Assembly: GCA_010405405.1 (NCBI GenBank)
Contig: MU004241.1
Coordinates: forward strand, 434,001 to 498,000
DNA length: 64,000 nucleotides
Source of the DNA: Microthyrium microscopicum
Lineage: Eukaryota
Direction of reading: 5' to 3'
Shown here one piece after another: positions 21,708-64,000 of the stretch. A program made the translations under genes and the position numbers. The stretch's first letter is position 1. Each line of letters starts with the position of its first letter. The notes beneath the pieces are model-generated. The model ran no database searches. It was not told where the DNA came from and saw only the letters and a program-made list of their open reading frames with translations.

Positions 21708-22331
21708 ATGCTTAGTGCGGCGTAAATGACAATTAAAAAGCAAGATCCTGCACGTCGCCAACGGCGAAGTTTTGTGTTTAAAATCGCAATCGATCAACAT
21801 CTAATGATCATGCTTTACAATAACCAGTACCATTGACCGACAAACCAATGAAGGGCATCACACGTCTATGCAGACGTAGCTTTCCTCGCTCTCCACTCAT
21901 TCTCCAGCATTCCAAAGCTCAAATAATCGTGCCATTTGCCATCATACCACAAACTCTCCCGACTTCTGCCCTCAAACACGAACCCAAGCTTCGGATACAA
22001 TCTTTGAGCTCCGTCATTGTACGAAAACGTCTCAATTCCGATACGATGTAACCCAGCCTTTTGAAATCCCCACTCCAATACCCAGTTAATGGCCTCGGAC
22101 CCATAACCTTTGTTTTGGTATGGCGCCAAAATGTCCAAGCTAATGTAGCTATTTCGGTGGTGCTCATAGCCCGGTCTTGGTGCTGTGAGGTAGATACTTC
22201 CAATCGCCACCTCGTTCTCGGATTCGGTAGAAGAATTTCTGGGCTTGCCTGCAGATTCATGGCTATCGCCTTGTGCTTGATGCTGCTGAGGTGATGTTTT
22301 GAGACAGATAACTACGCCAAGCAGTGTCTTC

Positions 22332-22460
22332 TGTTTGAAGGTGTCTTACAAGAGTACTTCTAGAGTACATATAATAGTACTAATGTCTTGGCACTTATTA
22401 TAAGTAGCAATGGATCCCCTAGTAGTAGATAATTAAGTAATTTTACTCTATCTTTTGATA
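22332..22460 (+). repeat. 5' LTR of the Copia element
   Basis: 129-bp direct repeat of 28646-28774; the differences I saw are C/T and G/A transitions. Confidence 0.95.
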
Positions 22461-22472
22461 AGTTATGAGCCT
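22461..22472 (+). other. Primer-binding site of Ty5/Hemivirus type (half initiator tRNA-Met)
   Basis: AGTTATGAGCCT directly after the LTR, matching GGTTATGAGCC with one RIP-type G>A change. Confidence 0.7.
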
Positions 22473-25400
22473 AGGTAATGTAATACCTAATTATAGCTCT
22501 TCTTTAGTATATTTAAATAACTTTCTAAAATTATTCTATACCTTTAAAATTGTTCTACCTAAAGGATCTAATTAGATTATGTAGGGAAATCCCTTAAGAG
22601 AGATTTCCCTCTATATCCTAAGATAGATATTTTCTTATTTAGAAAAGAAACTAATAAGTTCTCTAGCTATTACTTTTAAGCCTATAATAATAATTCCTTA
22701 TTACTACTATTAGCTAAAACTATAATCTAGATGTACTTAAAACCTAAAATATATAAGCTTAACCCTTATACTAAGACCTAAATAGCCTAAAAAGTAGTTA
22801 TTTATAAGTAGTTGTCTACTCTATTAAATAATAGTAGAACTTGCTCTTAAGATAGTAATACTAGCTAAGGTATCTTATAATCCTTAATAGTCTCTTTCTA
22901 AGTACATATTATTATCTATTAAAAAACCTAATTATATCTTATTATATTCTTAAAATAAGACTTAAGATCGTTAAATAAGAAGCAATATAGCTAAAAAGAA
23001 GCTTTAAACATTTAACTCTACTAAGTTTAAAACTCTTATATCCTTAGAGCGAACTAGGTTATAAAGCAAAATATCTAAAGGTATTAAGCCTAAATAATCT
23101 AAAAAGATTAAGTTAAAGAAGGTAGACCTTATTATTAACGATATACCTTATTAAATTAATACTACTAAAGAATTCCTTTAGGCTAATAAAAATCTCCTAA
23201 AAGTTAACGTAATTAATAAGAAGAAGAAGAGTTAGAATAATAATATACCTTATAAGAAGAATAAAGAGAAAGTACCTATTTAGAGCGTTAAACCTATTAT
23301 ATCTACTAAGTATATCCTAGAGAGAAGTAAAGCCTTAATAAATTATTATAGTAATACTAAACGTTAAGAAAGATAGCTAGTAGAGGCCCCTTTATATATA
23401 AATATAGGTAAAGATACTCCTAATCTAGGTAGTAATTCTTTTCTATTAGAACCTAAATATTACTTAGATAGCGCTCCTCTATTTTTACTAAGTCTAACTC
23501 CTTCTAAATTAGAGTCTAAAAATAAAGAAGTTAAAGAAGAAAAAAAATATAATAACGTCCCTAAAAACCCTCTTCTTATACCTATAATACCTATACGTAG
23601 AGCCTCTTATAGAGCTTATAGCAGACGTAGTATAAAACGCCCTATACTGACTAATTAGCTAGAAGGTATTATAATAAGATTATAACAAAGCTATACTAGA
23701 GGCTTATCTTAGACTAAACTCTCTAATTAACCTAGACTTACTAGACCTACTAGACTTGCTAGACTTGCTATCTCTATTTTATAGTTTGCTATTAATCTAT
23801 AGAGCCTCTTAGGGGGTTTATTCTCTAAATAAATAGTAGCCTTAATATAGTTGCTAGCTTAATAAGCTTAACCTACTCTACCTACTATATTATCTCTTCT
23901 TCCCTTATCCTTTCTTAGTAGTACTATAAATCTACTATTTATCCTAGCTATAAGTAATAAATTCCTTATTAATAGTACTAATATAAAGCTAAACTTTAAT
24001 TAAGCCTTTAAACTTATTATAAGTACTAAGTTCTATAAACTAGAAGGTAACTCTAACTAGTAAACTTAGAACTAATAGTTTAGAGGTTTTATAGAAACTA
24101 TTAACTTCTAGAACTTCTTTATTAGTATATTTAACTATATATCTAACTTCTAATAAGTCTTTTAGTAAAACTACTAAAGTACTTATGTTCTAGAACTCCT
24201 ATTCTTTACTTACTTATCTAAGCTTCTAAGCTTTCCTATATCTCTTATAAATCTAAAAGAGGCCTTTATGCTTCTTAAGTAATAATATTATAGAATAAGA
24301 TATAATTAATTTACTAGTATTATTTATAAGCTACATAATATTAATTATTAATTAATAGGCTTTACTAAAGAACTTACTACTACTATTAGTATTATTTAGG
24401 TAGAAGTAGCTTAGCTTAGTAATAGCTATAAAATTCTAAACTAGATATATAATATTTAGTATATAGAGAATGTTCCTAGTATTCTTAATAATAAAGTTAG
24501 TAGTCTAACTAAGCATTCTAATATATAGAGCTATAAAGTTAATTATAACTTTAGTACTCTTATAGATATCCTTATTACTAAAGAGAATCGCTTTACTAGA
24601 AAAGATAATAGTTTCTTTATTATTTTAAGTATATAATAAAAAGCTAGTAAACTACGTCTTTATTTTAATACTTTATAAGAACTAGTAAACTTTATAAAGA
24701 ATCTAGCTATTAGTAAATATCTAAGATACCTAAATAATTTTTATAGAGACTTTAATAGTCCCTATAGCTATTATAATTATAAAGCAAATACTTAATAATA
24801 AGATAAGAGGCGTTCTAGATAGAATAAGAAATCTAGTTAAGCTCCTAAGCAAAGTTAAGGTATTAAAAAAGGAAGCTTTTAATAATATAAAAGCTCTTAC
24901 TTTAGGTAGTATAGCTAGAATATATACTATAGTTAAAATAAGCCTAAGTATACTAGAATATTTTATTCTTACTACTTATAATATTACTATAGACTAGATA
25001 TTTAACTTTAGCACTAAAAGATACATTATAGATAATTTAGTTTAGTTTGCTAGTTAACTTATAGGCGTATTCTTTAGTACTTACCTTATTAGCGTTAGTA
25101 GTTATATAGAAGTTAAGAAAGTAGGCATTATATATATACCTATTTAAGTTCTTAATAAAGATAGTAAAGAACTATACTCTAAGATTCTTAACTTATATAA
25201 TTCCTACTATATTCTTAATCTCTTATTTAATATTATCTCTCTTAAACGCCTTTTCCTTAATGTATATAGAGAAGAGACTAATATTTTTATTATCTTTAAA
25301 AGCCTCTACGCCTCTATCTTGTATAATAATAGTCTACTTATTACTAAAGCTAATTATATTAGTAAAGATCTTTATTTATTACTTACTAAATATCTTTCTT

Positions 25401-28400
25401 AGGATTATACTAAGTATAAAATATCTTTATAGGCAAAAGCCTTTATATTATATTAAGTACTTATTATACTAACTTTCTAAAATTCTTCTATAACTCTTAA
25501 ACTCTAGTATTAGCGCCTTAGCTATATTAGTAAAGTAAGGCTCTATCATTTATTAAAATAGTAAAGAATATTTACTCCTTAGAATAATATCTTCCCCTTA
25601 TATAATTCTTACTATAAGGTAAATCTTATTTATAAATATACGCTAAGAAGCAACCTAGATTAAGTAGATTATTCCTTTAAAAGAATCTATATAGATCTAG
25701 GTAGTCTCTTTTGCTACCTATACTATAATAAGAATAGTAACCCTATCTCTAGCTAGCTTTATAAAATCTTCTAGCTCTTCTTAACTAATAATTATTCTTA
25801 ATATTGCTAGATATACTTTCTTCTTATAAAGGATATAATATCCTATAAACTTTATAAATAGATAAATTAAGTAAAAAATAAATACTAAGGCTACCTAGTA
25901 ATATTTTATTATAATAATAGATCTAAGTTTAATAACAAAATTATTACTAAGATTTAAGACGTCTATAGTATCTACCTTAAACTTATTATTCTATATACTA
26001 TAGAGTAGAATAATATTAATAAGCGTAGAATAGGGCTAATTACTACTATAGTATAAGTAATAGCTATATATACTAATCTTTCTTCTTACGTTTTTCTAGA
26101 ATTATTAAATATTATTACTTACTTAATTAATCTTTAGCCTATTATAGCTAATAATAGCAAAACTTTTTACTAAGTATTCTTTAATAAAAGATTTCCTAAT
26201 CTTTTAGTACTAAAGGTTATAGGCTATATGTATTAGAAACCTATTCCTTAAATCTCTACTTATTATAAAAAAGATACTGCTAGAAGAGATAAATGTTTCT
26301 TTCTTAGCTATAGTATAATAATAAGTTTTAGTACTTAACTTAATATAAATTAGTATAGAGTATAGAATACTAATACTAATTATATAGAAACTATAATAAA
26401 TCTTTATTTTAAAGAATATAGATTTTTAAATCTTAATAAATTCTCTATAAAACTACTTTATTCTATTATTAGTAAAAATGCCCTAATGTTCTTAACCCTA
26501 GAATAACTCTCTTAGAAAATAAAGTGTCCCTAGGCTAATAGTCTCTTCTTTACTAATAACTATATTAAGGAAGAGATATTGCTAATAAATATTAGTAATA
26601 TATTATTACTACTATTATTAAAGAGACTAAAGCTAGAAGATAATATAATATATAATTATAATAGAGACCTTGTTCTTACTACTAGTTTCTTTAATAAAGA
26701 GAAAAGAATCTATAATTATATTATAGAGGCTACTCTCCTTCTTATAATAATAACTAAGGATAAAAATTAGGATTATTAATTTTGTAAAATTGCTACGCTT
26801 TATTTAATAGATAAGCACTAAGATGCTATCTTTGCTATTATTCCTAATTAAGCTAATAGAAATTTATTACTTAGAGAAGCCTAAATAAAAGACCTAAAGT
26901 CTTATAAGGAAGCTATTTATCTAGATAATCTTAACTATTAAGCGTAAGCTAACTTAGTTAATAAGAAATATAATGCTTATAATTAAAATAGTACTTAGGA
27001 AATAATTAATATTACTAACGTATCTTTAACATTATTAATCTTTACTAGTAAATATATCTTTAAAAAGAAAGAAGACGCTAACTAAAAACCTATATAGTTT
27101 AAGGCATAGTAGTGTGCTAGAAGTTTTAAATAGTAGCTTAGGGTTAACTATTTTAAAACTTTTATATTTATAGTTAAAAGTATAAGCTATAAACTACTTT
27201 TTGCTTTTACTATTTTATATAGCTAGTATATTTATTAAATAGATATTATTATTACTTTTCTTTATAGTATAATTAATAAGACTATATATATAGAAATGCT
27301 ACCTAACTTTTAATAAGTAGGTAAGTATTATAAGCTTCTTAAAGTCCTCTATAGCCTAAAATAAGCTTTATAGATTTAGTAGGAAACCTTAAGTAAATAA
27401 TTAATCTAGCTAGGTTTTTATTATAGCCCTTATAACTATAGTATCTTTATTAATAATATCTTTAAAGTTATTATTATAGTATACATTAATAACTTATTAC
27501 TTTTTAGTCTTAACCTTAATGCTATTATATAAATTAAGAGGAAGCTTTAGAAATTCTTTAAGATAAAGGATATAGATAAAGCTACTTACTATCTAGGTAT
27601 TAAAATTAGTTATACTATTTATAATAATAAGGTTATTAAACTCTTATTTAGCTAGGGTGCCTATTGTACTAAAATTCTTAAAGATTTTAATTTCTATAAC
27701 GCCTATCCTATTACTATACTTATTATCCTTAGTAGAATATTCTTACTAACGCCTCTAATTTATATAGTTAATAAGAAGGTTTATAAATAGTACTAGTCCT
27801 TAATTAAATTTATTATATACTTAATGCTTAGTACTTACTCTAATATAGCCTACGCTATCTCTATACTTAGTCACTTTTCTTTAAATTTAACTAAATATTA
27901 TGTAGAGGAAGCTAAATACTTACTTTACTACTTTATAGATATATATAACTATAGCCTTATTATTAATACTAAATCTTTAAATCGTAAGATTCTTAGCTAT
28001 ATTAATTCTAACTAGGCTAGAGATAAGGATAGATAATTTACTAATAGCTACGTTTTTACTCTTAGCAAAGTAGCTATAAGCTAGAGTTCTAAGCATTAAG
28101 TAATAGTTGCTTTATCTAGTTATAAAGCTAAATATATTATAAAATCTAAAGCTACTAAGAAAGTAATTTAGCTAATAAGACTTATTTTTAATTTTTAGTA
28201 TAAAGATAAAAAGAATATTCTTATAAAAGGTAATAATTATAGTATACTTTTTATAATATATAATCTTAAGTTTTATACTAGAACTAAGTATATTAATACC
28301 TATTACTACTTCATCTATAAAAAGGTTCTAGTAAAAGAACTTTATATAGAGTAGGTACTAACTACTAAAAATCTAATAGATAGACTTACTAAACTACTTT

Positions 28401-28645
28401 TTAGACTAAAGTTCTAAGAGTATTATAAAAACCTAAGTCTTTATTTATTAAATAACCCTATAGTACTCTAATATTCTATTTTTACTAATTATCTAGATAT
28501 ATATATATTTAGTATATCTAGATATATATATTTTATTATTTAGTACTAACTTCTATTATATACTAATTATATTTTTATTATATACTTATATTTTTATACT
28601 TATTGCTTTGTTCCTTATATATCTATTATACTTATTAAGGGAGAG

Positions 28646-28774
28646 TATTTAAAGGTATCTTATAAGAGTACTTCTAAAGTATATATAATGGTACTAATGT
28701 CTTGGCACTTATTATAAGTAGCAACGGATCCCCTAGTAGTAGACAATCAAGTAATTTTACTCTATCTTTCGACA
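28646..28774 (+). repeat. 3' LTR of the Copia element
   Basis: Preceded by the polypurine tract AAGGGAGAG (28637-28645); ends TTCGACA followed by the TSD TCTTC. Confidence 0.95.
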
Positions 28775-29638
28775 TCTTCTCCGCAATATATTTGCGATGT
28801 TTTTCGCTTTCTGGCTTGGTTATTGGTTTGAGCAGGGTAGAGTCTGATGCTGTAAGTGCGGCGTAATCGCTTTGGATTCGATGTATCAAATTTGCGTCTT
28901 CTGCAGTATTTTCAACACCGCGGTATGCCAGGCGTGCGGAAGTGAAAGCGTTGGCCATAATTATGCGTCCTGGATGTTATGATGGATGAATTAGTGGTCT
29001 CTCAAGAATTAGGAAGGTAGTGGTGTAGTTCATTTGACTTTCCAAAATGGCACTTACCTAACCGTAAGTTCTCGCTCAATAAATATAGGACGATCCTTCC
29101 TATCCCTAATGGAGATCACTTACGACACTCAGCGCCCCATGCTTTCCTACATTATGTTCACGAATTAAACCGAACAACGACAAGCAGCTACCACGTAATT
29201 AGGTAGATTTCTACTCACCCAGAGCTAAAGACAGTAGTGGAAAAAGTGGTCTTTGGGGAACTTGCCGCGTAGAGTTGTTTCCAGGCTCACTTCAGCACGT
29301 TCGTTATGAGCTTCATAGGAAAAGCCCTTCGTTTATCTTTTAGATATTTAGAAGGCACATACTTATCTTGAGGTAAGGTCCGGATACATCAACAGTCTCT
29401 ACAGCATGAGCTTGCTTGTAGAAATGTTCTCGAGAATACTGGTAATTAATTTCAATCCCATCGCTGAATTTTAGATATAGTCAGGTATTTCAATAGCTTC
29501 CAGGTTTGGACCGGATTTTGAATAGGTATGGCCCAAAGAAAGGTTTGTTTACTGGCTTGAGACGCTCCCTCCGGTCATTTATGACTCTTCAACACCAAAT
29601 GGGCGGCACAGTAAGCGGCTTGTGGCGAAGCACGGTTC

Positions 29639-31613
29639 ATGGAGCCCAAATACCTGCTATCATCTTTCCAACAAGAAGATGATCACCTTCCGCGACGTCG
29701 AAAGCCGTTCAGATCAAAAGTCTTTCCAGAGAGATTACAGGTACATATCAGAAGGATGCGTCGCCACGATCCTCTTACCGCACTTGGTTACGACGTTTTC
29801 CTGAACACTTTGCTGCAGGTAGTTAGCCCGATTCCTAAATCGAGTACCCTGACATGAGTTATAGATTCAACAGTCTACAAGTTTCGCGTTGCTAACGGTA
29901 AACCTTGTCAACAAAGACTGGCATTCCATAGCTCAACCTCTCATCGATAGGCAACTCGACATTACCATCGGTGAACAACCAGTACGCAATAAGTTGTTGT
30001 TTGCTCGTTTGCAGGATGAAGACTTCAAAGCTCGTGTGCAGGAGATAATTGTGCGACCGACCGAAACCCAAGAATACTTGCCAAATGACGAAAATGAACT
30101 GGCCGTTCTTGCTACCTTCCTACCATGGATGAGGATCACTAGATTCCAGTATTGCTTCCATCCCAGTAATTTACGGCTCACTAATTTACGTAGTTGGAGA
30201 TTTCGCCAGATTCCACCAGACTTTTTGATAGAAGTCTTGCGCAACTGCGATGGCTGCGCTATCCAAATCAGCCCAAGCCAAGTATATCTCGGGCCTCATA
30301 ACCATGCTGCCTGGTATTGGGAGAAGGGCTTTGGCAGATACGCAGCTGGCGACCTATTGCGATTGCAGCTCATATGTTCCAAGATAGAGACTCTTCGACT
30401 AGAAGGGTCTTATGATCTAGAGGGATTCAATAATCTTGGCCGATTATTGGCGCTGTCTGTTCAGCTGTCTTCACTTGAGCTGAAAGTCACAATACCGGGG
30501 GTCCTAAGGTCAGAAAGATCAAAATGGCCAACCTGGTATGCCGGTTGGTTGTCTGAATCACTTTTGGGCCATGTTCTCAATCTACGCACCATACGATTAG
30601 ATGGGCTTTGCGCCTGCGATGACAATGAAGTACGTCGTTGGGGGCAAATCCTGCACTGGGAGACTCTAGAAAACGCCTCCTTCACATGCCCTGCCTTTTT
30701 GACTTGCGCGCCGAGCCGACTGATACGACTCCATACGGTCAGACTAAACATCGACAGACCTCAATCTGGCAATGGCTGGGATTCAGTTGAATATCATATA
30801 GGCCTGAGGCAAAATCATTGCTCATCTGCTCCCAGTGGAGATAGAGTTAGAGATGTCCTTTTGTCACTACCTCCGTTAAGAGAGCTCTGCCTAAAGAATG
30901 CAGGAGTTGACGATTCCATCCTGAGGCGACAACCGAAGCTTGTTCATCTTGACCTGATCAACGACCTAGTGCCAGGAGAAGTCACGGAATCACCATTTGA
31001 TATGTCCATATTCAGATCGATGCACAAGCACTGCAAACGGCTTAGATCACTGTCCCTTCGTCTTCACCTTGATCAACTATTTCCTTGTCTTACATATATT
31101 GCCCGCCACGGGCTGTCAGTATCCCATCTGATATTGGATCTCGGGATTCCAAGGAACAACCCAAATTACTTCGAAGAACGTCCACACCGCGAAGATTTAT
31201 CCACTTGTCTGACAATTTTCCAATGCGTTTCTTCTTTCACGGTCAGAACCTACTCAAATTGTTTGCTCTCGAACCTGAATATTGGGCTGTCTGTTTGTCT
31301 TCCAATGGATATGTCATACTCGACTGAGCAGGCTTTGTGGGTGCTTGCGGAGAGGGAATACCGCCTTGATGTCAAATATCAAGATGGCAAGAGTCATGCT
31401 GTTTTCGTTCCTGTTCCGATAGAGTCTAGTATTTCGCAAATGCAGGAAGCCAGCGGATCGGTTTATAAACGTACGTTTCAGCAACTTGATTTTTCAAAGA
31501 CCCAAATAACGGAGCTCGGTGGAATCAGCTTCGATGCAGTTAGCACTCCATATGGCTGTTCCAACATTGCATGGAAGACGCACCATCAACGTCGTGGGCG
31601 AGCTGTCATATAA
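29639..31613 (+). CDS. Fungal F-box/LRR-like hypothetical protein
   Basis: Exon 1 from ATG at 29639 (DPLTALGYDVFLNTLLQ), then a long Leu-rich ORF with LxxLxL repeats (IETLRL, LSSLEL, LRTIRL, LRELCL, LRSLSL). A probable in-frame intron lies at about 30150-30192. Confidence 0.6.
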
Positions 31614-51986: not shown

Positions 51987-54900
51987 AGGGAGGGTTAGCA
52001 AACCAAATCGTGCCAAATTGATTTAAGTGTTTTCTAGCTAAATCTAGGTTAGGGGGCGTTAATGCTTAGATCTATAAGTATTACGTAGGGATAATACGTT
52101 ATATATAAATTTCCTCTATATACGTTTTCCTATCATAACGTTGCTATATTTTAATCTATCTTAACTAAAAAGAGCCCAAAATAGATACTATTAAAGCTAA
52201 CGATATTAAGATAGCTATTATTAGTATTTTAGTAATACTAATATACGAGATACTTAATAATAAATAATAAAATAAAGAATATAGGTTACTAATTAAATAT
52301 ATACTATTTAATTAGTATCTTAAAGATAAGTTAAAGTAGATATATAAAGTTAAATATTAGTATGCACTATAGGCTTAGGTTAAAGTAATATCTATAATAC
52401 TAATTAGTATGTAATAGATTTAAGAAGCATAAAATATAATAGCTAGTAGAGATATTTAATCTTAATAACGTTCCTCTTCTATATTAAATTATACTACTAG
52501 ATAAAGCTAATTTCCTATTATATATAGTATGCTATAAGCTTACTAGAATTTATACCTATATTAATATTTATTAGTACTTTAGAAGAAGTATTAGTTATAT
52601 AAAGTTCTACTTTAATACTATATTATTATACTTATACTATAAATATATAAAGTTATTATTATAGTTTTACTCTTTCCTTATATTATTAAGATATAAATAA
52701 TACGCTAGAGCTATTAATCATACTAGTAGTATATATAAATTTTAAGGCTAGATTAATAGAATATATATTAATATTAGTAGGCTAAAGGGTACCTAGATCT
52801 AGTAGGAATTCTATAGTAGTTATAAAGAAAACTACTATATAAAAACGTAAGCTATAGCTATGCCTAATAGGATGTTGCTAGCACTTAATTATAGCTACTT
52901 TAGATCCTTAAACAATCCCCTAATATTAATTAATTCTAGTCTTAAAGATAGGATTTAATAAATATTTAGTAATAGTCTAAAGAAGCTATTATATAGCGAC
53001 GTAGCTTATCCTACTAATAATATAATTATATCTCTATACTAAGGCATAGAATTACTCCTTTAGTAATAGAACTTTAATCTATAATAAGCTAGTATTTATA
53101 TTGCTATAAAGTAAATATTTACTATTTTAAAAAACTTATAGTAAGGAGAAACGTCTAACTATAGATATAATATATAGATAGGATTAATACCTATAGTATA
53201 TTATTAGACTATATTAGTATTACTTTAGAACTATAGAATAGCATTATAAAGATATAATCTTATTTAAAGTCATTTTAGGGTTTTGCTACTATTAATTAAT
53301 AAATATTTAAATCCTATAAATATATTTAATATTCTAATACTATTAAAAGGAGAAGAATAAGATAATTTAAATAGTATAGAATAGTTATAGTATTTATTAA
53401 AGATATTAAAGTTATAAAGTAAAGTTAGATATTCTTATTAAAGGAAAAGAAGTTAATAAGGTAGAGTTAGCTAATTATTTAACCCTTTTATATACTTTTA
53501 AAGCTTTTAGTATCTATTATAAGATTTATATAAAAACTATATTCTAACGCTACTACTAAATTATATAGAGAATATTAAAATACTCTTACTAATATTTATT
53601 ACTTATAAGACTCTTTAATAACTTCTTTATCTCTATTATCTCTAAGCGTAATCTATTTACCTCTTTCCTTAGACCTATAACTTTACCTTCTTTATTACTA
53701 CTACTACTACTACCTATAAGATTATTAGTATTACTACTACTATATTTATTTTAATCTCTAAGAGCCTAAATAATTAATTTAGATATCTTTATAATAGTAT
53801 CTTTTAGTATACAAACTTCCTTAGTCCTTTTATACTTCTTCTATACTCTTAGAGTTAAAGTAGAAGCTCTTAAAAAGTAAGGAATTACTAAAGAAGTAAA
53901 GGTACCTATAGGATTTAGCTATAGGTTATTTAAACTAATATCTTATTATATTTCTACTAATATTTCTTTAAGATTATTAGATAATTCTTTAACGTTACTA
54001 TTACTATCTAAAAGAATATTAATTAATAGAGTACCTTTATCTATAAATTATTAAGCAAGATTATTACGTATTATAAAGCTATCTTCCTTCTATACCCTTT
54101 TTATATTAGAGGTACTCTTTTTAATAATAATAATATTATAATGCTATGTCTAAATAGGTTTAAATTAATTAAGCACCTATCTAAATTTATTATATAGAAT
54201 ATTATACTCTAATAAATTCTTCCTCTTTGCTATTTATAGAGGAATTACTCTCTCTATTATTACTATATATACTACTCTAGTAGGTTCCTTATCTATTATA
54301 AAGTTCTTCTTAGTTTTAAAGAAGATAGAAACTATATACTACTACTAGATTTTCTATTCTATAATAGCTTTCCTACTAATACTACTATAAGTATTAATCT
54401 TCTCTAAATAATAATATAAAACTATAGTTAACGTTAGTATAGCCTAATTAAGGTTTTACTTCCTACTCTTTAAAGGCATTAAAGATATTAGAATTATAGA
54501 AACTATAAGTACTAAAGTTATAAAAACTATAAGTACTAGTATAGTAGTAAATACTTACTATAAAGAGAAGAGTAAATAAAGCTTTAGTTAGCTCTATAAT
54601 AATAATATTAGCATAAACTAATTTAAAGATAGTAACATAGTACTATTTTAGTATATATCCCTATATTATAGTTAAGGCTAGAGATCCTATAGTAGCAATA
54701 GTAGCATTTACTAAGAATTAGTTCTCTAGCTAAATTCTTATATCTATAAGCCTATAGTAAAGTTAAAGTTAGGATTTTAGCTAAAATACGCCCTACTATA
54801 AAGTATTTATATAAGAGTTATCTTATTAACGTTATAGGCTTCCTTAAACGACTCTAAATACTATAATTCTTATAGTTCTTATAATTCTTATAATTCTTAC

Positions 54901-55310
54901 TATTATAAAGAACGCTAGATTAACTCTACTAGTAAGGAATTAGTATTATTTAGTAAGTATTATAGATTTAAAGATATACTAACAATATAGATAGATTTAT
55001 ATAGTATTTTACTACTTATAGCTATACTAAAGATTTATTTAACTTTATTAACTTTAATAGCTTTAGCACTTTTAGAATACGCTCCCCTAATAATATTCTT
55101 AGACCTATAGATTTATAAATTAATAGAATGTCGTTAAAATAATAATAAGCTAATCCTATCTTAGTGCTACTAAACCCTTTTAATCAAATCAAATTAAGGT
55201 TAAGCCGCTAGACCTAAGGTCTAGCGGGTCGACCTTGATTTAATTATCTAACGATTTTGGGTAAAGATCTGCAAATCAATTTGGCACGATTTGGTTTGCT
55301 AACCCTCCCC
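51987..55310. mobile_element. RIP-inactivated PIF/Harbinger DNA transposon (3324 bp)
   Basis: About 38-bp TIRs (G/A)GGGAGGGTTAGCAAACCAAATCGTGCCAAATTGATTT, 3-bp TSD ATT (51984-51986 and 55311-55313), and a de-RIPed DDE_Tnp_4-like motif LLY(G)DVAYP at about 52986 on the plus strand. Confidence 0.88.
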
Positions 55311-57138
55311 ATTGGCATGCAGAACTATTTGACGGTACCATTTGCTTGGCTTACAGTAGTAACACCGGTGAGGCTGGTGAGGCTAGTGATTTGGCTGAAA
55401 GGAGCCTAATCAGTTTGTCTAGATCTTGCTAGGGTGCAGTGTGGGAGATGTATAATTTCCAAAAGGTTCAGCCGCGGCTCAAACACCCCTCCATTGGCTT
55501 GTTTGAGGTCCAAATAGTCGAGTCCTTTTCTCATCTCAGCAACTGGTATAATTGGCAAAGGAGCTCACAGGCGCTGTAGTAGTCAATGATGTGGACTCTG
55601 AAAAGAGAACGCTATAAATTCTGTCCTCATCGGGATTTGAGCATGATCCGTCAGCCAGGATAAAATAGCCCTGATGAGCAAGAGGACGCAGAGCTATGTC
55701 ATGTCAGCGAACACCCTTATGAATCCTGTGCCTCCTGATGTAATATGTCGTCCCCGCAGCGATCCGCACAATCCTAAACAATTATGTCGTAGGGAGCAAT
55801 ATATATCCCCAACTTCTCAAGCGCAAGGCTGGGTGAGCTGTGGCAAGATGTGGGCAGATGCGTGATGCGAGGGCAGGATTCGGAGTACGAAGTGAGCTTT
55901 CCTGCTCCTGCTGACCATGGAGGCCATGTCAAGTGACGCTAACAACGTCCAAAATTGGGTTGTCTAGCTGCGTGTTTGTCAGAGCTGCTCTGGAGAATGG
56001 ATCCCAATGGGCAAGCGAAGAGGCTGAACAAAACAAGTTATTGGCGCTCAGCTGGATGAAGCTGGTGAGAATGTTGGCGGGTTGGGTGTTGACGGTGTAA
56101 GTCGTGCTTTTGTTCTTTCGCTTGTGTACTCCTTTGTTGGGTGTAGTTTGAGTGCGGCTGCATCAACATTTGTACTGTTTGTTTAGTCTGGAAGCTCACA
56201 TGGCCAGAAAGACGGGTTGTTCAGCAACTTCAGCTCAAGGTCGGCGCCTACACTGCTCCAAAGCCCACCGACTGGATCAACCCAACAGCATGGCAAAGAT
56301 CGGTGAAGACCTGCTTGGCGTGGAGATTGGGCTTCAGAAAGAGACGAGGCTGGCCAATGGTGGTGAGAAGCTGGGCAAGCGAGGAGTGTCAAAACAATGT
56401 TCCTGGCGATCCACAGCCTGGATGCGGATAGGGCAGACCAATTGCGTATCAAGATGTTGTTTGGTGGAGGGAAGAGAGTCCAAGACGGGCGCAGCGATCG
56501 GCGAGTCTTGATCAGATGGTGAGAACTGAGAAGGTGTCTGACAGGGGCACGTTCCGCCTAAGAGTCTTTTTCAACGGGGATGCCCGTAAGTCTGGCTTTC
56601 CCTGGGTTGCTGCCACGGGGTTGGTGGATTGGTGGGTGCAAAAGGCGTTATGGGCAAATTATTGGCGCTTTTTTCCAGTCCTTTTTGGTGTTTTGCTCTC
56701 TGCACGCTGCAGCCCAGAGGCCCCAGACCACGAGGTTCCCCCCAATTGGCAATCGTTTCCATTGGTGGCGGATGAGGGATTGGCGAATTGCAAAGCGGAT
56801 CTCGTCAGTGCTGCGTGTACTGGGTCCAGGTCCAGGTTCACACAGCCTGCTACCGTATGGTCATGTTCCCAGAGTGATTAATCCTGATGGAGAAGCTCTT
56901 TGAGCTCACCATCAACATCCAGGGGATCCTGAAATTTTACATCTAGACAGATATAAGGCCTTCCTTCCTCCCCCTTGCCATCCAAGGCCTCCTACATACA
57001 AACTCTATACACAACATACAAACCTTAAACCATACCAACAAACTCTTACACAGTTACACCATACTACATCTCACTCTTACCCGACTATCCGATCTCACAT
57101 CTTATCTGTACGACATTACACCAGCCACCACTACCACC

Positions 57139-61563: not shown

Positions 61564-62859
61564 TCAATCATCCCAGGAGTGCTTGAAAGCAGACTCCGGT
61601 CCGTGTTTCCATTTCAAGGCCGTCATGACTTCATGCTCATGTCCCCATTCCCTCAACTTATCATAGTTGCGGCAAGTCTTTGTCAGCCTCAGGTCTGGCA
61701 ACGGTACGCGCCGGTATTTGTTATACGACCAGGAGATTGTGGAGACATCTCCGTGGCACATTATCGAACGGCGAAGATTGTCGATGCAGTGATCTATGGC
61801 CCAGTTAGTGGATGTTACCTCTCGTCGATTGGACTCTGGTTGGCCACGACAGCAAATGGCCGTGGCTCTCAAGAGCCAGCTCTTCAAAACCAGCCACAGG
61901 GGACGTGGACTCACCATAATGCTGCGCATCAACGCTGGTGTAATTACGGGAACCATCTTTGTTGATAAAGTCATCGTAGTCGCTCATATACCGATCCGGA
62001 TAGAGTGATTTTCGCAGTACGTTGAGGCAGTGTAGATCGTGGAAGACGGTGAGCTGGGTCACGTATAGATCGCTGTTTGGCAACTGGACAGTGTCCAAGG
62101 TGAGTTGGCGCGCATCGTCTTTGGTAACCCAGCTGTTCCCAACTATTTCAGTGTCAGTGATGACAACTCGAGGAAAAGATGGTTCGTCTCACAGTCATAT
62201 AGGTCTATCCATTTCTTGTCCGTTGCATTCGTGGGCAATCCGTCAGTGACGTTGCACATATATGGTGTTTTCTGGTAAAAGTTCTCCCCGAAGGTTGTGA
62301 TCTCGTAGGATATCGCTGAGGAAGCGGGTGCTGGTTAGTTTGTTAGTCGAAAGCTAAGACTTTCTGCTATCAGATGTACTCAAGTGCTGCGAAGGACTTA
62401 CAGAACAATTGCTGAGAGATATCTCCGCACATTGGGCTACCGTTGCGAAGGACATTTGAAAGGAGCATACCACTCAGGCAAATGATAACCGTGTAGAGAA
62501 AAGTGAAGTGTAAAAATCTCGACGATGTCCTTGAAATCTGTCAGTATAAGTTAGGATCAATGCCAAGTCTATTTGAATAGACTGAGGTCTTTTCATGGTG
62601 AAATTCCGAATGACTTCATGGAGGCCTTCTCTTCTTGCGGGAATTATAGCACTCGGACAGGAACACATGCTATGGGAGCCATGGAAGGTACTGAAACCCT
62701 GCACTGGTTTTGCTGTTTGTCATGTCGTCACAACATGAGGTTTACCACAAGGAAAACTTACCATTTTCTCACTTCTTCAATGTGCGCAGAAACGCCTTTC
62801 TCAATCCGAACATTGTTGGCTTCTTCATCTGGCAAAGCGGCATAGGTTTTCAAACTCAT
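61564..62859 (-). CDS. DUF3328 / UstYa-like oxidase (multi-exon)
   Basis: Spliced TM helix FLHFTFLYTVIICLSGMLL, then LF|SPASSAI, DKKWIDLY, VFHDLHCLNVLRK, H-Y-D-H-C-IDNLRRSIMCHGD (across intron 61914-61794) and KTCRNYDKLREW: two HxxHC motifs. The first exon (MSLKTYAALPDEE, ATG 62859) is plausible but its splice to the next exon is unresolved. Confidence 0.92.
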
Positions 62860-63476
62860 CGTTGGACCAATATCAGTTATCCAGACGCCCAATGCAGACA
62901 ATTAACCAACAAACAATAGAGATCAGTATATTTTGACTGAACACTGGAAACGTCTGTAGCCTGTAGGCCCAGGGATCTAGAAGCATCCGCCTCGACATAA
63001 TTGGCCTTGAAATAGCTTAGTGACTCTTCGGCGTTTACTTTCTGATCAGTCACCTGCCAATTTAGATTTCTAGGCAGTTCCACGAGCTCTAATTTCACAT
63101 TAGTGTTCACAATCTCAGCCTAATGCTTCAAAAAGACCTAGCTCTTTCCCAGATAATGCTTTCGCCACTCCAAGCCAGGCTGCTTTGAGTATCGCCTTGC
63201 CGCAAAGGAATCCTCAGAGCCTCACAACACGCGCTAAATGTCACAATGGTGAGCCTCATGGCAGGCACGCTTTGAATGAATCACACGGTGACCACGTTCA
63301 GTGACAGCACCAAGCTAGTCCAAGAAAGGGAATGTCATCAATTCTAGGCACTACTTAAGCTCTTCTTCCACTCGAATTGTTCTTCATCCTTCATCCTCTT
63401 CCCGCACACTCTCATCCACAACACATCCAACCAATTCATCTGATCACTTATCGCATCTACATCCAAATCCTTCACC

Positions 63477-64000
63477 ATGAAGCTCAGCATTGCTGTTGCT
63501 TCTCTCACTCTCCAAGCCCTCGCGGTTTTGGCCGCCCCTGCTGGCACTCCAGCAGTCAAGGGTAAGTTGAAAATTCCATCTCCCTTAAGCATATGCTAAC
63601 TCCTCATTTAGCTATTCGTGCCTCTGTCGACGAGCTCAGCATCGCTGAGTGGAATGGTCTTGCCTTCAAACGCGATGAATTCGAATTGAAGTCCAAGGTT
63701 GGTGACAAGTCCAAGGTCGGCGACAAGTCCAAGGTCGGCGACAAATCCAAGGTTGGCGACAAATCCAAGGTCGGTGACAAGTCCAAGGTCGGCGACAAAT
63801 CCAAGGTCGGCGACAAATCCAAGGTCGGCGACAAATCCAAGGTCGGCGACAAGCGCGGATTCACTCACTACAACGGAGGCTGGGTCGCCAAGCTCAAGCC
63901 AAAAGAGAAGCGCGGATCTGCTCACTACGATGGAGGCTGGGTCGCCAAGCTCAAGGACAAGCGTACGGTCAACTACAACGACTGGAAAGCCAAGCTATTC
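63477..64000 (+). CDS. Secreted Kex2-processed repeat protein, putative RiPP precursor (3'-truncated by window end)
   Basis: ATG at 63477 in CACCATG context; signal peptide MKLSIAVASLTLQALAVLA; intron 63562-63611 (GTAAGT...GCTAAC...TAG); then AIRASVDELSIAEWNGLAF-KR-DEFELK(SKVGDK)9R-GFTHYNGGWVAKLKPKE-KR-GSAHYDGGWVAKLKD-KR-TVNYNDWKAKLF. The frame is open to the window end. Confidence 0.88.
63692..63853 (+). repeat. Coding minisatellite, 9 x 18 bp (SKVGDK)
   Basis: Unit TCCAAGGT(C/T)GG(C/T)GACAA(A/G); all variation falls at third codon positions of the plus-strand frame. Confidence 0.97.

What the first reader, a model, noticed from the sequence alone, without database searches (positions are those of the whole stretch)
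63854..64000. Non-identical cores with two aromatic spacings and a conserved basic follower
Seen: two cores have Y-x-G-G-W (YNGGW, YDGGW) and the third has the shorter Y-N-D-W. All are followed by (V/K)AKL, and the residues between KR and Tyr vary (GFTH, GSAH, TVN). Inference: invariant Y, W and AKL against variable neighbours suggest Y/W are the modified residues and AKL(K) is an enzyme-recognition follower, giving a small library with two ring sizes. The dikaritin precursors I know mostly have acidic spacers, so the Lys-rich context is unusual. The released peptides could alternatively be cationic membrane-active peptides.
Basis: partly seen in the sequence, partly recalled or inferred. Interest (0 to 1): 0.7.

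Follow-up and report, generated by a model that had tools for sequence, protein, structure and literature searches.

The report
Fungal mixed-peptide precursor with copper oxidase
A fungal gene encodes one secreted protein that is probably cut into about ten different short aromatic peptides and oxidised by a copper enzyme encoded next to it: a known kind of peptide pathway, but with an unusually varied, tryptophan-centred set of peptides.

Summary
The three modules are real, but they are the first 3 of 10 in a 313-residue precursor that runs 468 bases past the window (signal peptide, 12 KR sites). It lies head-to-head with an intact DUF3328/UstYa oxidase gene carrying both HxxHC motifs, between housekeeping genes: a dikaritin-type pair. 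Y…W-x-AKL holds in 3 of 10 modules, four modules have no Tyr, and 8 of 10 are net acidic, so neither a universal AKL follower nor cationic lytic peptides is supported. All 10 share aromatic-x(1-3)-W/F-x-x-x-[LIVF]. A second precursor on another contig, probably a paralogue, carries NYNDWKAKLF again with four silent differences, so that tract is under selection. That gene sits beside a very different HxxHC protein, and its main modules use a W+3 register instead. A nine-copy KSKVGD block before the modules resembles an amplified follower. Best reading: one dicopper oxidase cross-links aromatic pairs in a small peptide library; the chemistry is inferred, not shown. No relative of the precursor was found outside this genome. 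New variant of a known kind.

The parts
63477..63561 (+). Precursor exon 1: start codon and hydrophobic signal peptide (about residues 1-19, cleavage site not computed)
   Evidence: Gene model; 9-residue hydropathy 1.3-2.1 over the first 15 windows
63562..63611 (+). 50-base intron, GTAAGT...TAG with a CTAAC branch site
   Evidence: Read from the sequence; not among the joints listed for the RNA-derived contigs
63612..64000 (+). Precursor exon 2, window part; it continues to G000:C12:498468 (window-equivalent 64468); whole protein 313 aa with 12 KR sites
63689..63850 (+). Nine tandem copies of KSKVGD with no KR inside; resembles the tract that follows Trp in modules 2, 3 and 5
   Evidence: Tandem array, period 18, 8.9 copies; 3 of 3 variable columns silent; DNA likeness to module 3 12/18 and to module 2 15/24
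63857..63913 (+). Module 1, GFTHYNGGWVAKLKPKE-KR (Y-x3-W; the only net-positive module)
63914..63964 (+). Module 2, GSAHYDGGWVAKLKD-KR (Y-x3-W)
63965..64000 (+). Module 3, TVNYNDWKAKLF(TDE-KR) (Y-x2-W), cut by the window end; its 10-residue centre recurs in a second precursor at G000:C9:1650722-1650778
61564..62859 (-). DUF3328/UstYa oxidase gene, 273 aa, five exons (62859-62762, 62529-62402, 62330-62193, 62142-61915, 61793-61564); one transmembrane helix; HDLHC at 156 and HYDHC at 196
   Evidence: PF11807 158.8 bits, cut-off 25; exon model equals database protein P0008; motifs and helix; intron 62331-62401 skipped in one low-depth contig
62860..63476 (.). 617-base divergent intergenic region shared by oxidase and precursor genes
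   Evidence: a shared promoter is inferred, not tested

Best explanation
The gene is a Kex2-processed multi-core RiPP precursor and its head-to-head neighbour is its tailoring enzyme. Shown: signal peptide, 12 KR sites, ten aromatic modules of six classes, an intact DUF3328 with a membrane anchor and two HxxHC motifs, one kexin-type P-domain protein elsewhere in the genome. Inferred from the family: the precursor enters the ER; the dimeric dicopper oxidase meets it in the secretory lumen and oxidatively cross-links the aromatic pair of each module (by analogy to AprY, an aromatic side chain onto the beta-carbon of an aromatic residue 2-3 places away, here with Trp as the constant partner); Kex2 and Kex1 release the peptides, and unclustered peptidases may trim them. 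Inferred from this sequence alone: the enzyme is positioned not by AKL as such but by a hydrophobic residue four places after the Trp/Phe (W-x-x-x-[LIVF]), of which AKL is one version. The output would be a small library of Y-x1-W, Y-x2-W, Y-x3-W, Y-x2-F and Tyr-free W-x2-W rings.
For: Architecture. Oxidase; a DUF3328 gene is most often the direct neighbour of such precursors (PMC7329392 section 7); asperipin-2a needs a single DUF3328 and has rings between aromatic residues of FYYTGY (PMC6514808 passages; PMC12186524 passages); dicopper HxxHC dimer in an organelle lumen (PMC12435403). Pattern: aromatic-x(1-3)-W/F-xxx-[LIVF] in 10 of 10 modules, 6 of 6 classes, 0 of 200,000 shuffles; it also held for YSPNEWLTAV, a module found afterwards in the second precursor. 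Selection: 5 of 5 variable columns silent in the four EPRDWSKWSFEIPA copies against 0 of 2 in their spacer; 4 of 4 silent in the shared NYNDWKAKLF. Contigs of one run with spliced introns cover parts of both genes.
Against: No product or modification was observed. The W+4 pattern was defined after looking at the data and rests on 7 distinct pentamers. The spacing between aromatics varies from 1 to 3 (4 in the second precursor), which is much to ask of one cyclase. Known dikaritin rings use Tyr, and Trp is no commoner in precursors with a DUF3328 neighbour than without (20.5% against 24.5%, PMC7329392). DUF3328 enzymes also hydroxylate and halogenate. No peptidase, transporter, tyrosinase or methyltransferase gene was seen beside the pair. 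No outside relative of the precursor was found, so conservation between species could not be tested.
Confidence: 0.55

Rival explanations
1. The oxidase does act on these peptides but does not cyclise them: it hydroxylates, halogenates or desaturates one residue (most likely the Trp) at a fixed distance from the W+4 hydrophobic residue, and the upstream aromatic belongs to the pharmacophore only.
For: The position fixed across modules is W/F to the +4 hydrophobic residue, while the upstream aromatic floats. CctR is a hydroxylase and ApnU a halogenase of this family (PMC12435403).
Against: An upstream Tyr/Trp within 1-3 residues is present in 10 of 10 modules (6 of 6 classes, shuffle P 0.002); DUF3328 genes beside multi-core precursors are cyclases in the characterised cases.
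Confidence: 0.2
2. The peptides are released linear and unmodified, as signalling, pheromone-like or antimicrobial peptides, and the oxidase has another substrate.
For: Many KEP peptides are linear (PMC9769878 passages); modules 7-10 start with Glu-Pro, a Ste13-type dipeptide; no other tailoring gene was seen beside the pair.
Against: The oxidase is the direct, divergent neighbour, 617 bases away; the paralogous precursor also has a divergent HxxHC gene; pheromone precursors almost never have a DUF3328 neighbour (PMC7329392 abstract).
Confidence: 0.12
3. Only some modules (for example the aromatic-x-x-aromatic ones, 7 of 10) are substrates; the others are drifting relics of repeat turnover or are substrates of another HxxHC enzyme acting in trans.
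For: Modules differ strongly in DNA (4-13 of 18 bases alike between classes); modules 1 and 2 differ by three amino-acid changes and no purely silent change; PF11807 gives 22 exon-level matches in this genome.
Against: All classes keep both the aromatic pair and the +4 hydrophobic residue, which drift should erase.
Confidence: 0.1
4. The released peptides are cationic membrane-active peptides.
For: Module 1 is +2; the KSKVGD segment is +6 with a beta-type hydrophobic moment of 0.62.
Against: 8 of 10 modules are net negative, and 9 of 10 have negative mean hydropathy.
Confidence: 0.03

Closest known systems
Asperipin-2a cluster (aprA precursor, single DUF3328 AprY), Aspergillus flavus
   Same: Kex2-type multi-core precursor with one DUF3328 and no tyrosinase; aromatic-rich core with aromatic pairs two and three residues apart (FYYTGY; PMC6514808 passages).
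   Different: Asperipin rings start from Tyr oxygen; here Trp is the constant residue and four modules have no Tyr. Six module classes in one precursor. No transporter or AprR-like reductase seen directly adjacent (an epimerase-family gene lies two housekeeping genes away).
Epichloecyclins (GigA, GigB), Epichloe festucae
   Same: One precursor giving several different cores, one DUF3328, core followed by a follower before the next KR (PMC10540207 passages).
   Different: GigA cores are near-copies cyclised through a conserved Tyr, with a clustered methyltransferase and kexin; here cores are far more divergent and neither enzyme was seen in the cluster.
Ustiloxins and phomopsins
   Same: Signal peptide, KR-flanked repeats, acidic residues around the cores. 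Module 4 holds FVIPIA, which resembles the phomopsin core as I recall it (recalled; not found in the held papers).
   Different: They need a tyrosinase and several DUF3328 genes; 0 of 16 tyrosinase matches lie on this contig.
Asperigimycins (recalled; paper not held)
   Same: As I recall, fungal RiPPs in which DUF3328 enzymes join Trp and Tyr, so Trp chemistry by this family has a precedent.
   Different: As I recall, several DUF3328 enzymes act on near-identical cores; here one enzyme faces many cores. Not checked.
KEPs in general (Umemura 2020, PMC7329392)
   Same: 2560 of 7878 KEPs had no homologue and 22% have a DUF3328 neighbour, so an orphan precursor with a DUF3328 is common.
   Different: None of five test strings (genus name, four motifs) occurs in the paper's three supplementary files; whether those files list peptide sequences at all was not checked.

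Membership tests
Kex2-processed repeat protein (KEP) | N-terminal secretion signal | tested here: met
   Hydropathy only, no SignalP: MK followed by a hydrophobic run
Kex2-processed repeat protein (KEP) | Repeated peptides separated by dibasic sites | tested here: met
   12 KR sites; four near-identical and six divergent modules
Kex2-processed repeat protein (KEP) | Kexin available and actually cleaving | tested here: inconclusive
   One PF01483 P-domain match in an 891-aa frame on contig C1; cleavage not testable
Dikaritin RiPP | DUF3328/UstYa gene clustered with the precursor | tested here: met
   PF11807 E 2.4e-46, direct divergent neighbour
Dikaritin RiPP | Two intact HxxHC motifs and a membrane anchor | tested here: met
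   HDLHC 156, HYDHC 196, hydrophobic helix from residue 38
Dikaritin RiPP | Product is cyclised by the DUF3328 enzyme | not testable with these tools
   Needs mass spectrometry and NMR
Dikaritin RiPP (Tyr-ether type: ustiloxin, phomopsin, asperipin) | Tyr in every core | tested here: not met
   6 of 10 modules hold Tyr; modules 7-10 hold none
Ustiloxin/phomopsin-type cluster | Clustered tyrosinase, methyltransferase, several DUF3328, peptidase or transporter | tested here: not met
   No tyrosinase match on contig C12; neighbours are NMT, mitochondrial L36, TLDc and SUR7 genes; an MFS gene lies about 17 kb away. Flanking frames were scanned in part only.
Alpha-type pheromone precursor | Near-identical repeats behind X-A/X-P dipeptides, no DUF3328 neighbour | tested here: not met
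   Only modules 7-10 begin with Glu-Pro; cores are mixed; DUF3328 adjacent
Cationic membrane-active peptides | Net positive, amphipathic peptides | tested here: not met
   1 of 10 modules net positive; 9 of 10 with negative mean hydropathy

The most novel reading that the evidence does not exclude
One DUF3328 makes a family of Trp-linked rings of several sizes, including Tyr-free Trp-Trp rings, guided only by a hydrophobic residue at W+4. A duplicate of the precursor gene was re-paired with a distant HxxHC subfamily that reads W+3, refilled with F-V-T-W modules, and kept three W+4 modules that are still under selection and are processed in trans by the window's enzyme. The KSKVGD array is an amplified follower that works as a docking or dosage element. 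This would be a snapshot of how fungal RiPP precursors change enzyme partners, and of cross-talk between unlinked clusters.
Probability: 0.2. Interest if true: 0.75.

Novelty: new variant of a known kind. Interest (0 to 1): 0.5.

Why it matters
Few dikaritin products are characterised (five as of PMC10512285), and how DUF3328 oxidases recognise their substrates is an open question. This pair is minimal (two genes) and carries its own natural substrate panel, so one heterologous expression would show how many ring sizes and which aromatic pairs a single enzyme accepts. The second cassette gives a built-in swap test of a W+4 against a W+3 rule. If it holds, it offers a promiscuous Trp cross-linking catalyst and a model of precursor-enzyme re-pairing. 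If not, it is one more orphan KEP with a DUF3328 neighbour.

Tried and rejected
Outside relatives of the precursor: none at E<=0.01 among 8000 scored candidates; 1 at E 0.27 among 4046, another KEP with unrelated cores; 3 weak repeat proteins at E 4e-8 to 6e-4 among 1.84 billion representatives, alike only in KR periodicity and spacer; 0 exact matches to a back-translated NYNDWKAKLF pattern in metagenome contigs. Relatives of the oxidase with context: 0 confirmed among 362 pattern hits in metagenome contigs; the protein search with one exon gave 1 hit among 109 candidates, the protein itself; no PDB sequence match for that exon. No run on record as RNA was listed; one run was guessed to be RNA, and its contig depths cannot rank the genes. 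Beta-helix idea for KSKVGD: Pfam Hexapep 24.6 bits, under its cut-off of 27; single-sequence AlphaFold gave mean pLDDT 36, at most about 53 over the repeat: no verdict. The oxidase model had mean pLDDT 55 and was not used further. Complex prediction of oxidase with modules 2-3 was not available; the Atlas could not take the precursor. Further copies of the three cores in the genome: exact pattern matches only in the two precursors; the 8 near-matches that I opened, of 48 listed, were unrelated genes. 3' similarity of the two precursor genes beyond a 14-mer: none by blastn, and the 14-mer alone scores E 0.53 in 190 kb. Papers on AprY in vitro and on asperigimycins were not held. No report of a module shared between two unlinked fungal RiPP precursors turned up in searches (listings only; open-access library only), which does not show that none exists. 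Earlier scan notes: none near this place or like this sequence.

Full report
Observation. The window is part of contig C12 of a 37.1-Mb eukaryotic assembly; a database protein identical to the neighbouring oxidase is labelled Microthyrium microscopicum by its source. The window ends inside module 3, so I fetched the DNA beyond it.

The whole gene. With one 50-base intron (63562-63611) the gene gives 313 residues and ends at window-equivalent 64468. It has a hydrophobic N-terminus and 12 KR sites. After the first KR come DEFEL and nine copies of KSKVGD, then ten aromatic modules: GFTHYNGGWVAKLKPKE, GSAHYDGGWVAKLKD, TVNYNDWKAKLFTDE, NDYNEFVIPIAKSGLA, ADDYYWNIKVNEPEAE, DTESPYIKWTHGFKE and four of EPRDWSKWSFEIPA with acidic tails, then NNEICPGDYC.

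The partner. 617 bases upstream, on the other strand, starts a 273-residue DUF3328/UstYa gene: PF11807 at 158.8 bits against a cut-off of 25, one membrane helix and both HxxHC motifs. The pair lies between an N-myristoyltransferase and a mitochondrial L36 gene on one side and a TLDc gene on the other. None of 16 tyrosinase matches lies on this contig. One kexin-type P-domain match lies on another contig. Contigs of one public run skip ten intervals with GT..AG or CT..AC ends in this 10-kb region, so they come from spliced RNA; they cover parts of the precursor, and one contig of depth 3 skips the oxidase intron 62331-62401. The run may be from the same material as the assembly, and its depths do not rank genes.

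Y-x(1-3)-W-x-AKL fits 3 of 10 modules and none of the 7 beyond the window. Tyr is in 6 of 10, Trp in 9 of 10. After removal of KR, 1 module is net positive, 1 neutral and 8 negative; 9 of 10 have negative mean hydropathy. So the basic follower is not general, and cationic lytic peptides are unlikely. What all ten share is an aromatic residue 1-3 places before W or F, and L, I, V or F four places after it; 0 of 200,000 shuffles of six module classes reached 6 of 6. I chose this pattern after seeing the modules, so that figure overstates it. AKL is one form of the pattern; W-N-I-K-V in module 5 is a close variant.

Selection. In the four EPRDWSKWSFEIPA copies 5 of 5 variable columns are silent (P about 0.002 under a transitions-only null), while both variable columns of the spacer change the residue; in the KSKVGD array 3 of 3 are silent (P about 0.04); modules 1 and 2 differ at three residues with no purely silent change. 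The numbers are small.

The KSKVGD array. L-K-S-K-V aligns with W-K-A-K-L of module 3 (12 of 18 bases; 0 of 653 in-frame windows of the neighbouring TLDc gene reach 12), and the last copy plus KR matches VAKLKDKR of module 2 at 15 of 24 bases (0 of 651); against modules 1 and 2 the 18-base score is only 9, which 16 of 653 control windows reach. I read it as a degenerate module whose follower was amplified nine times. Its role is unknown: docking array, dosage element (repeat number raised transcript and product for ustiloxin, PMC10512285 passages), or slippage. A beta-helix reading got no verdict.

A second cassette. Searching the genome with the modules gave 2 matches: the gene itself and C9:1650719-1650955. 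That is a 222-residue precursor with twelve modules. One is EINYNDWKAKLFGVE: ten residues identical to module 3, with 4 of 4 base differences silent (P 0.012 under a transitions-only null); 0 of 2000 shuffles give a shared peptide of that length. The two genes also share spacer sequence (KNSEVEKR against KNSDVDKR) and a 14-base motif behind the stop that occurs 2 times in the whole genome, once behind each; blastn finds no wider 3' likeness. They are probably paralogues. The C9 gene also has a divergent neighbour, 981 bases away, with a membrane helix and two HxxHC motifs, but it does not match PF11807 or the window enzyme by BLASTP (E 1.0); profile comparison of its 5-member family with 10 PF11807 pieces gives probability 57%, E 1e-4, over the motif region only. 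Nine of the twelve C9 modules are F-[VLI]-T-W with the hydrophobic residue at +3; the three Tyr modules, among them the new YSPNEWLTAV (twice), have it at +4. A third precursor on C15 has five V-V-T-W modules, all +3, near two genes of the C9 enzyme type. Over distinct pentamers, +4 is hydrophobic in 7 of 7 aromatic-pair modules and 0 of 8 T-W modules, and +3 the reverse (Fisher P 0.00016; related modules are not independent). Against a strict pairing: the C15 locus also holds a PF11807 gene, and the other 2 of the 4 paralogues of the C9 enzyme had no precursor-like frame within about 5 kb by my filter, which can miss intron-split genes.

How it most likely works. Shown: anatomy, neighbourhood, motifs, silent variation. 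From the family: DUF3328 proteins are membrane-anchored, luminal, dimeric dicopper enzymes (PMC12435403, first third of the text and passages); AprY alone closes two rings from Tyr oxygen to beta-carbons in FYYTGY (PMC6514808 and PMC12186524, passages); Kex2 and Kex1 release the cores (PMC9769878, passages). Inferred: the enzyme holds each module by the +4 residue, sets the Trp at the copper site and links it to the aromatic residue upstream, giving rings of several sizes; W-S-K-W-S-F, made four times, could take two links. I put this at 0.55; non-cyclising oxidation 0.2; linear peptides 0.12; only some modules used 0.1; cationic peptides 0.03. Trp is not enriched in KEPs with a DUF3328 neighbour (PMC7329392 section 7), so Trp as the reacting residue is the weakest step.

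Comparison and novelty. It meets the testable features of a dikaritin-type pair and works most like the asperipin and epichloecyclin systems (PMC10540207, passages; PMC9233826 and PMC12048977, passages). It fails the Tyr-in-every-core feature and lacks the ustiloxin-type enzyme set, so I do not file it under any named dikaritin. Orphan KEPs with a DUF3328 neighbour are common (PMC7329392, abstract and sections 6 part 1 and 7; PMC9632046, passages). The unusual points are the six module classes under one enzyme, the Tyr-free Trp cores, the amplified follower, and a module conserved across two unlinked cassettes with distant enzymes. No outside relative was found, but these collections hold few fungal genomes with context. 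The AprY and asperigimycin papers, which bear on substrate rules and Trp chemistry, could not be read; what I say of asperigimycins and of the phomopsin core is recalled. Verdict: new variant of a known kind, interest 0.5.

Noticed in passing
G000:C9:1648444-1650973 (L031:7444-9973): Second two-gene cassette: 222-aa KEP with F-V-T-W modules and three Tyr modules, divergent from a 252-aa HxxHC membrane protein that Pfam does not name; Atlas neighbours are unnamed ascomycete clusters, with a UstYa cluster at score 0.84 as a lead only.
   Followed up: yes
L057:8667-8942 (G000:C15:636667-636942): KEP with five EGVVTWADVSKR modules, among two C9-type HxxHC genes and one PF11807 gene.
   Followed up: partly
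L070:247-972 (G000:C7:750247-750972): Frame ending in three RKR-YFAGTEYIA modules and one YFKGSDYIA, about 4 kb from a PF11807 gene; another candidate dikaritin precursor.
   Followed up: no
window 61564-61794: The spliced contig of the mitochondrial L36 gene runs to 61794 and so overlaps the whole last exon of the oxidase in antisense.
   Followed up: no
window 63630-63673: The pro-region ELSIAEWNGLAFKR has Trp with Leu at +3, like the C9 and C15 module class: possibly a relic module.
   Followed up: partly
L001:2437-2466 (just beyond the window): The last segment, NNEICPGDYC, has two Cys and no Trp, unlike every other module; it could form a disulfide loop.
   Followed up: no
L001:2473-2560 and L030:1759-1862: Both precursor genes have a GTAAGT...AG intron-like stretch 3-4 bases behind the stop, then GGGTTGTTTGGGGG. 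The one contig over the C12 stretch reads through it unspliced.
   Followed up: partly
window 22001-30000 and 52001-56000: Two very AT-rich blocks (GC down to 0.22) with no long open frames; typical of decayed repeats, not examined.
   Followed up: no
L003:1088-9825 (G000:C12:508088-516825): About 10-18 kb downstream lie an amino-acid permease, an acyltransferase-3, a short-chain dehydrogenase piece and an MFS transporter; separated from the pair by TLDc and SUR7 genes, link not tested.
   Followed up: partly
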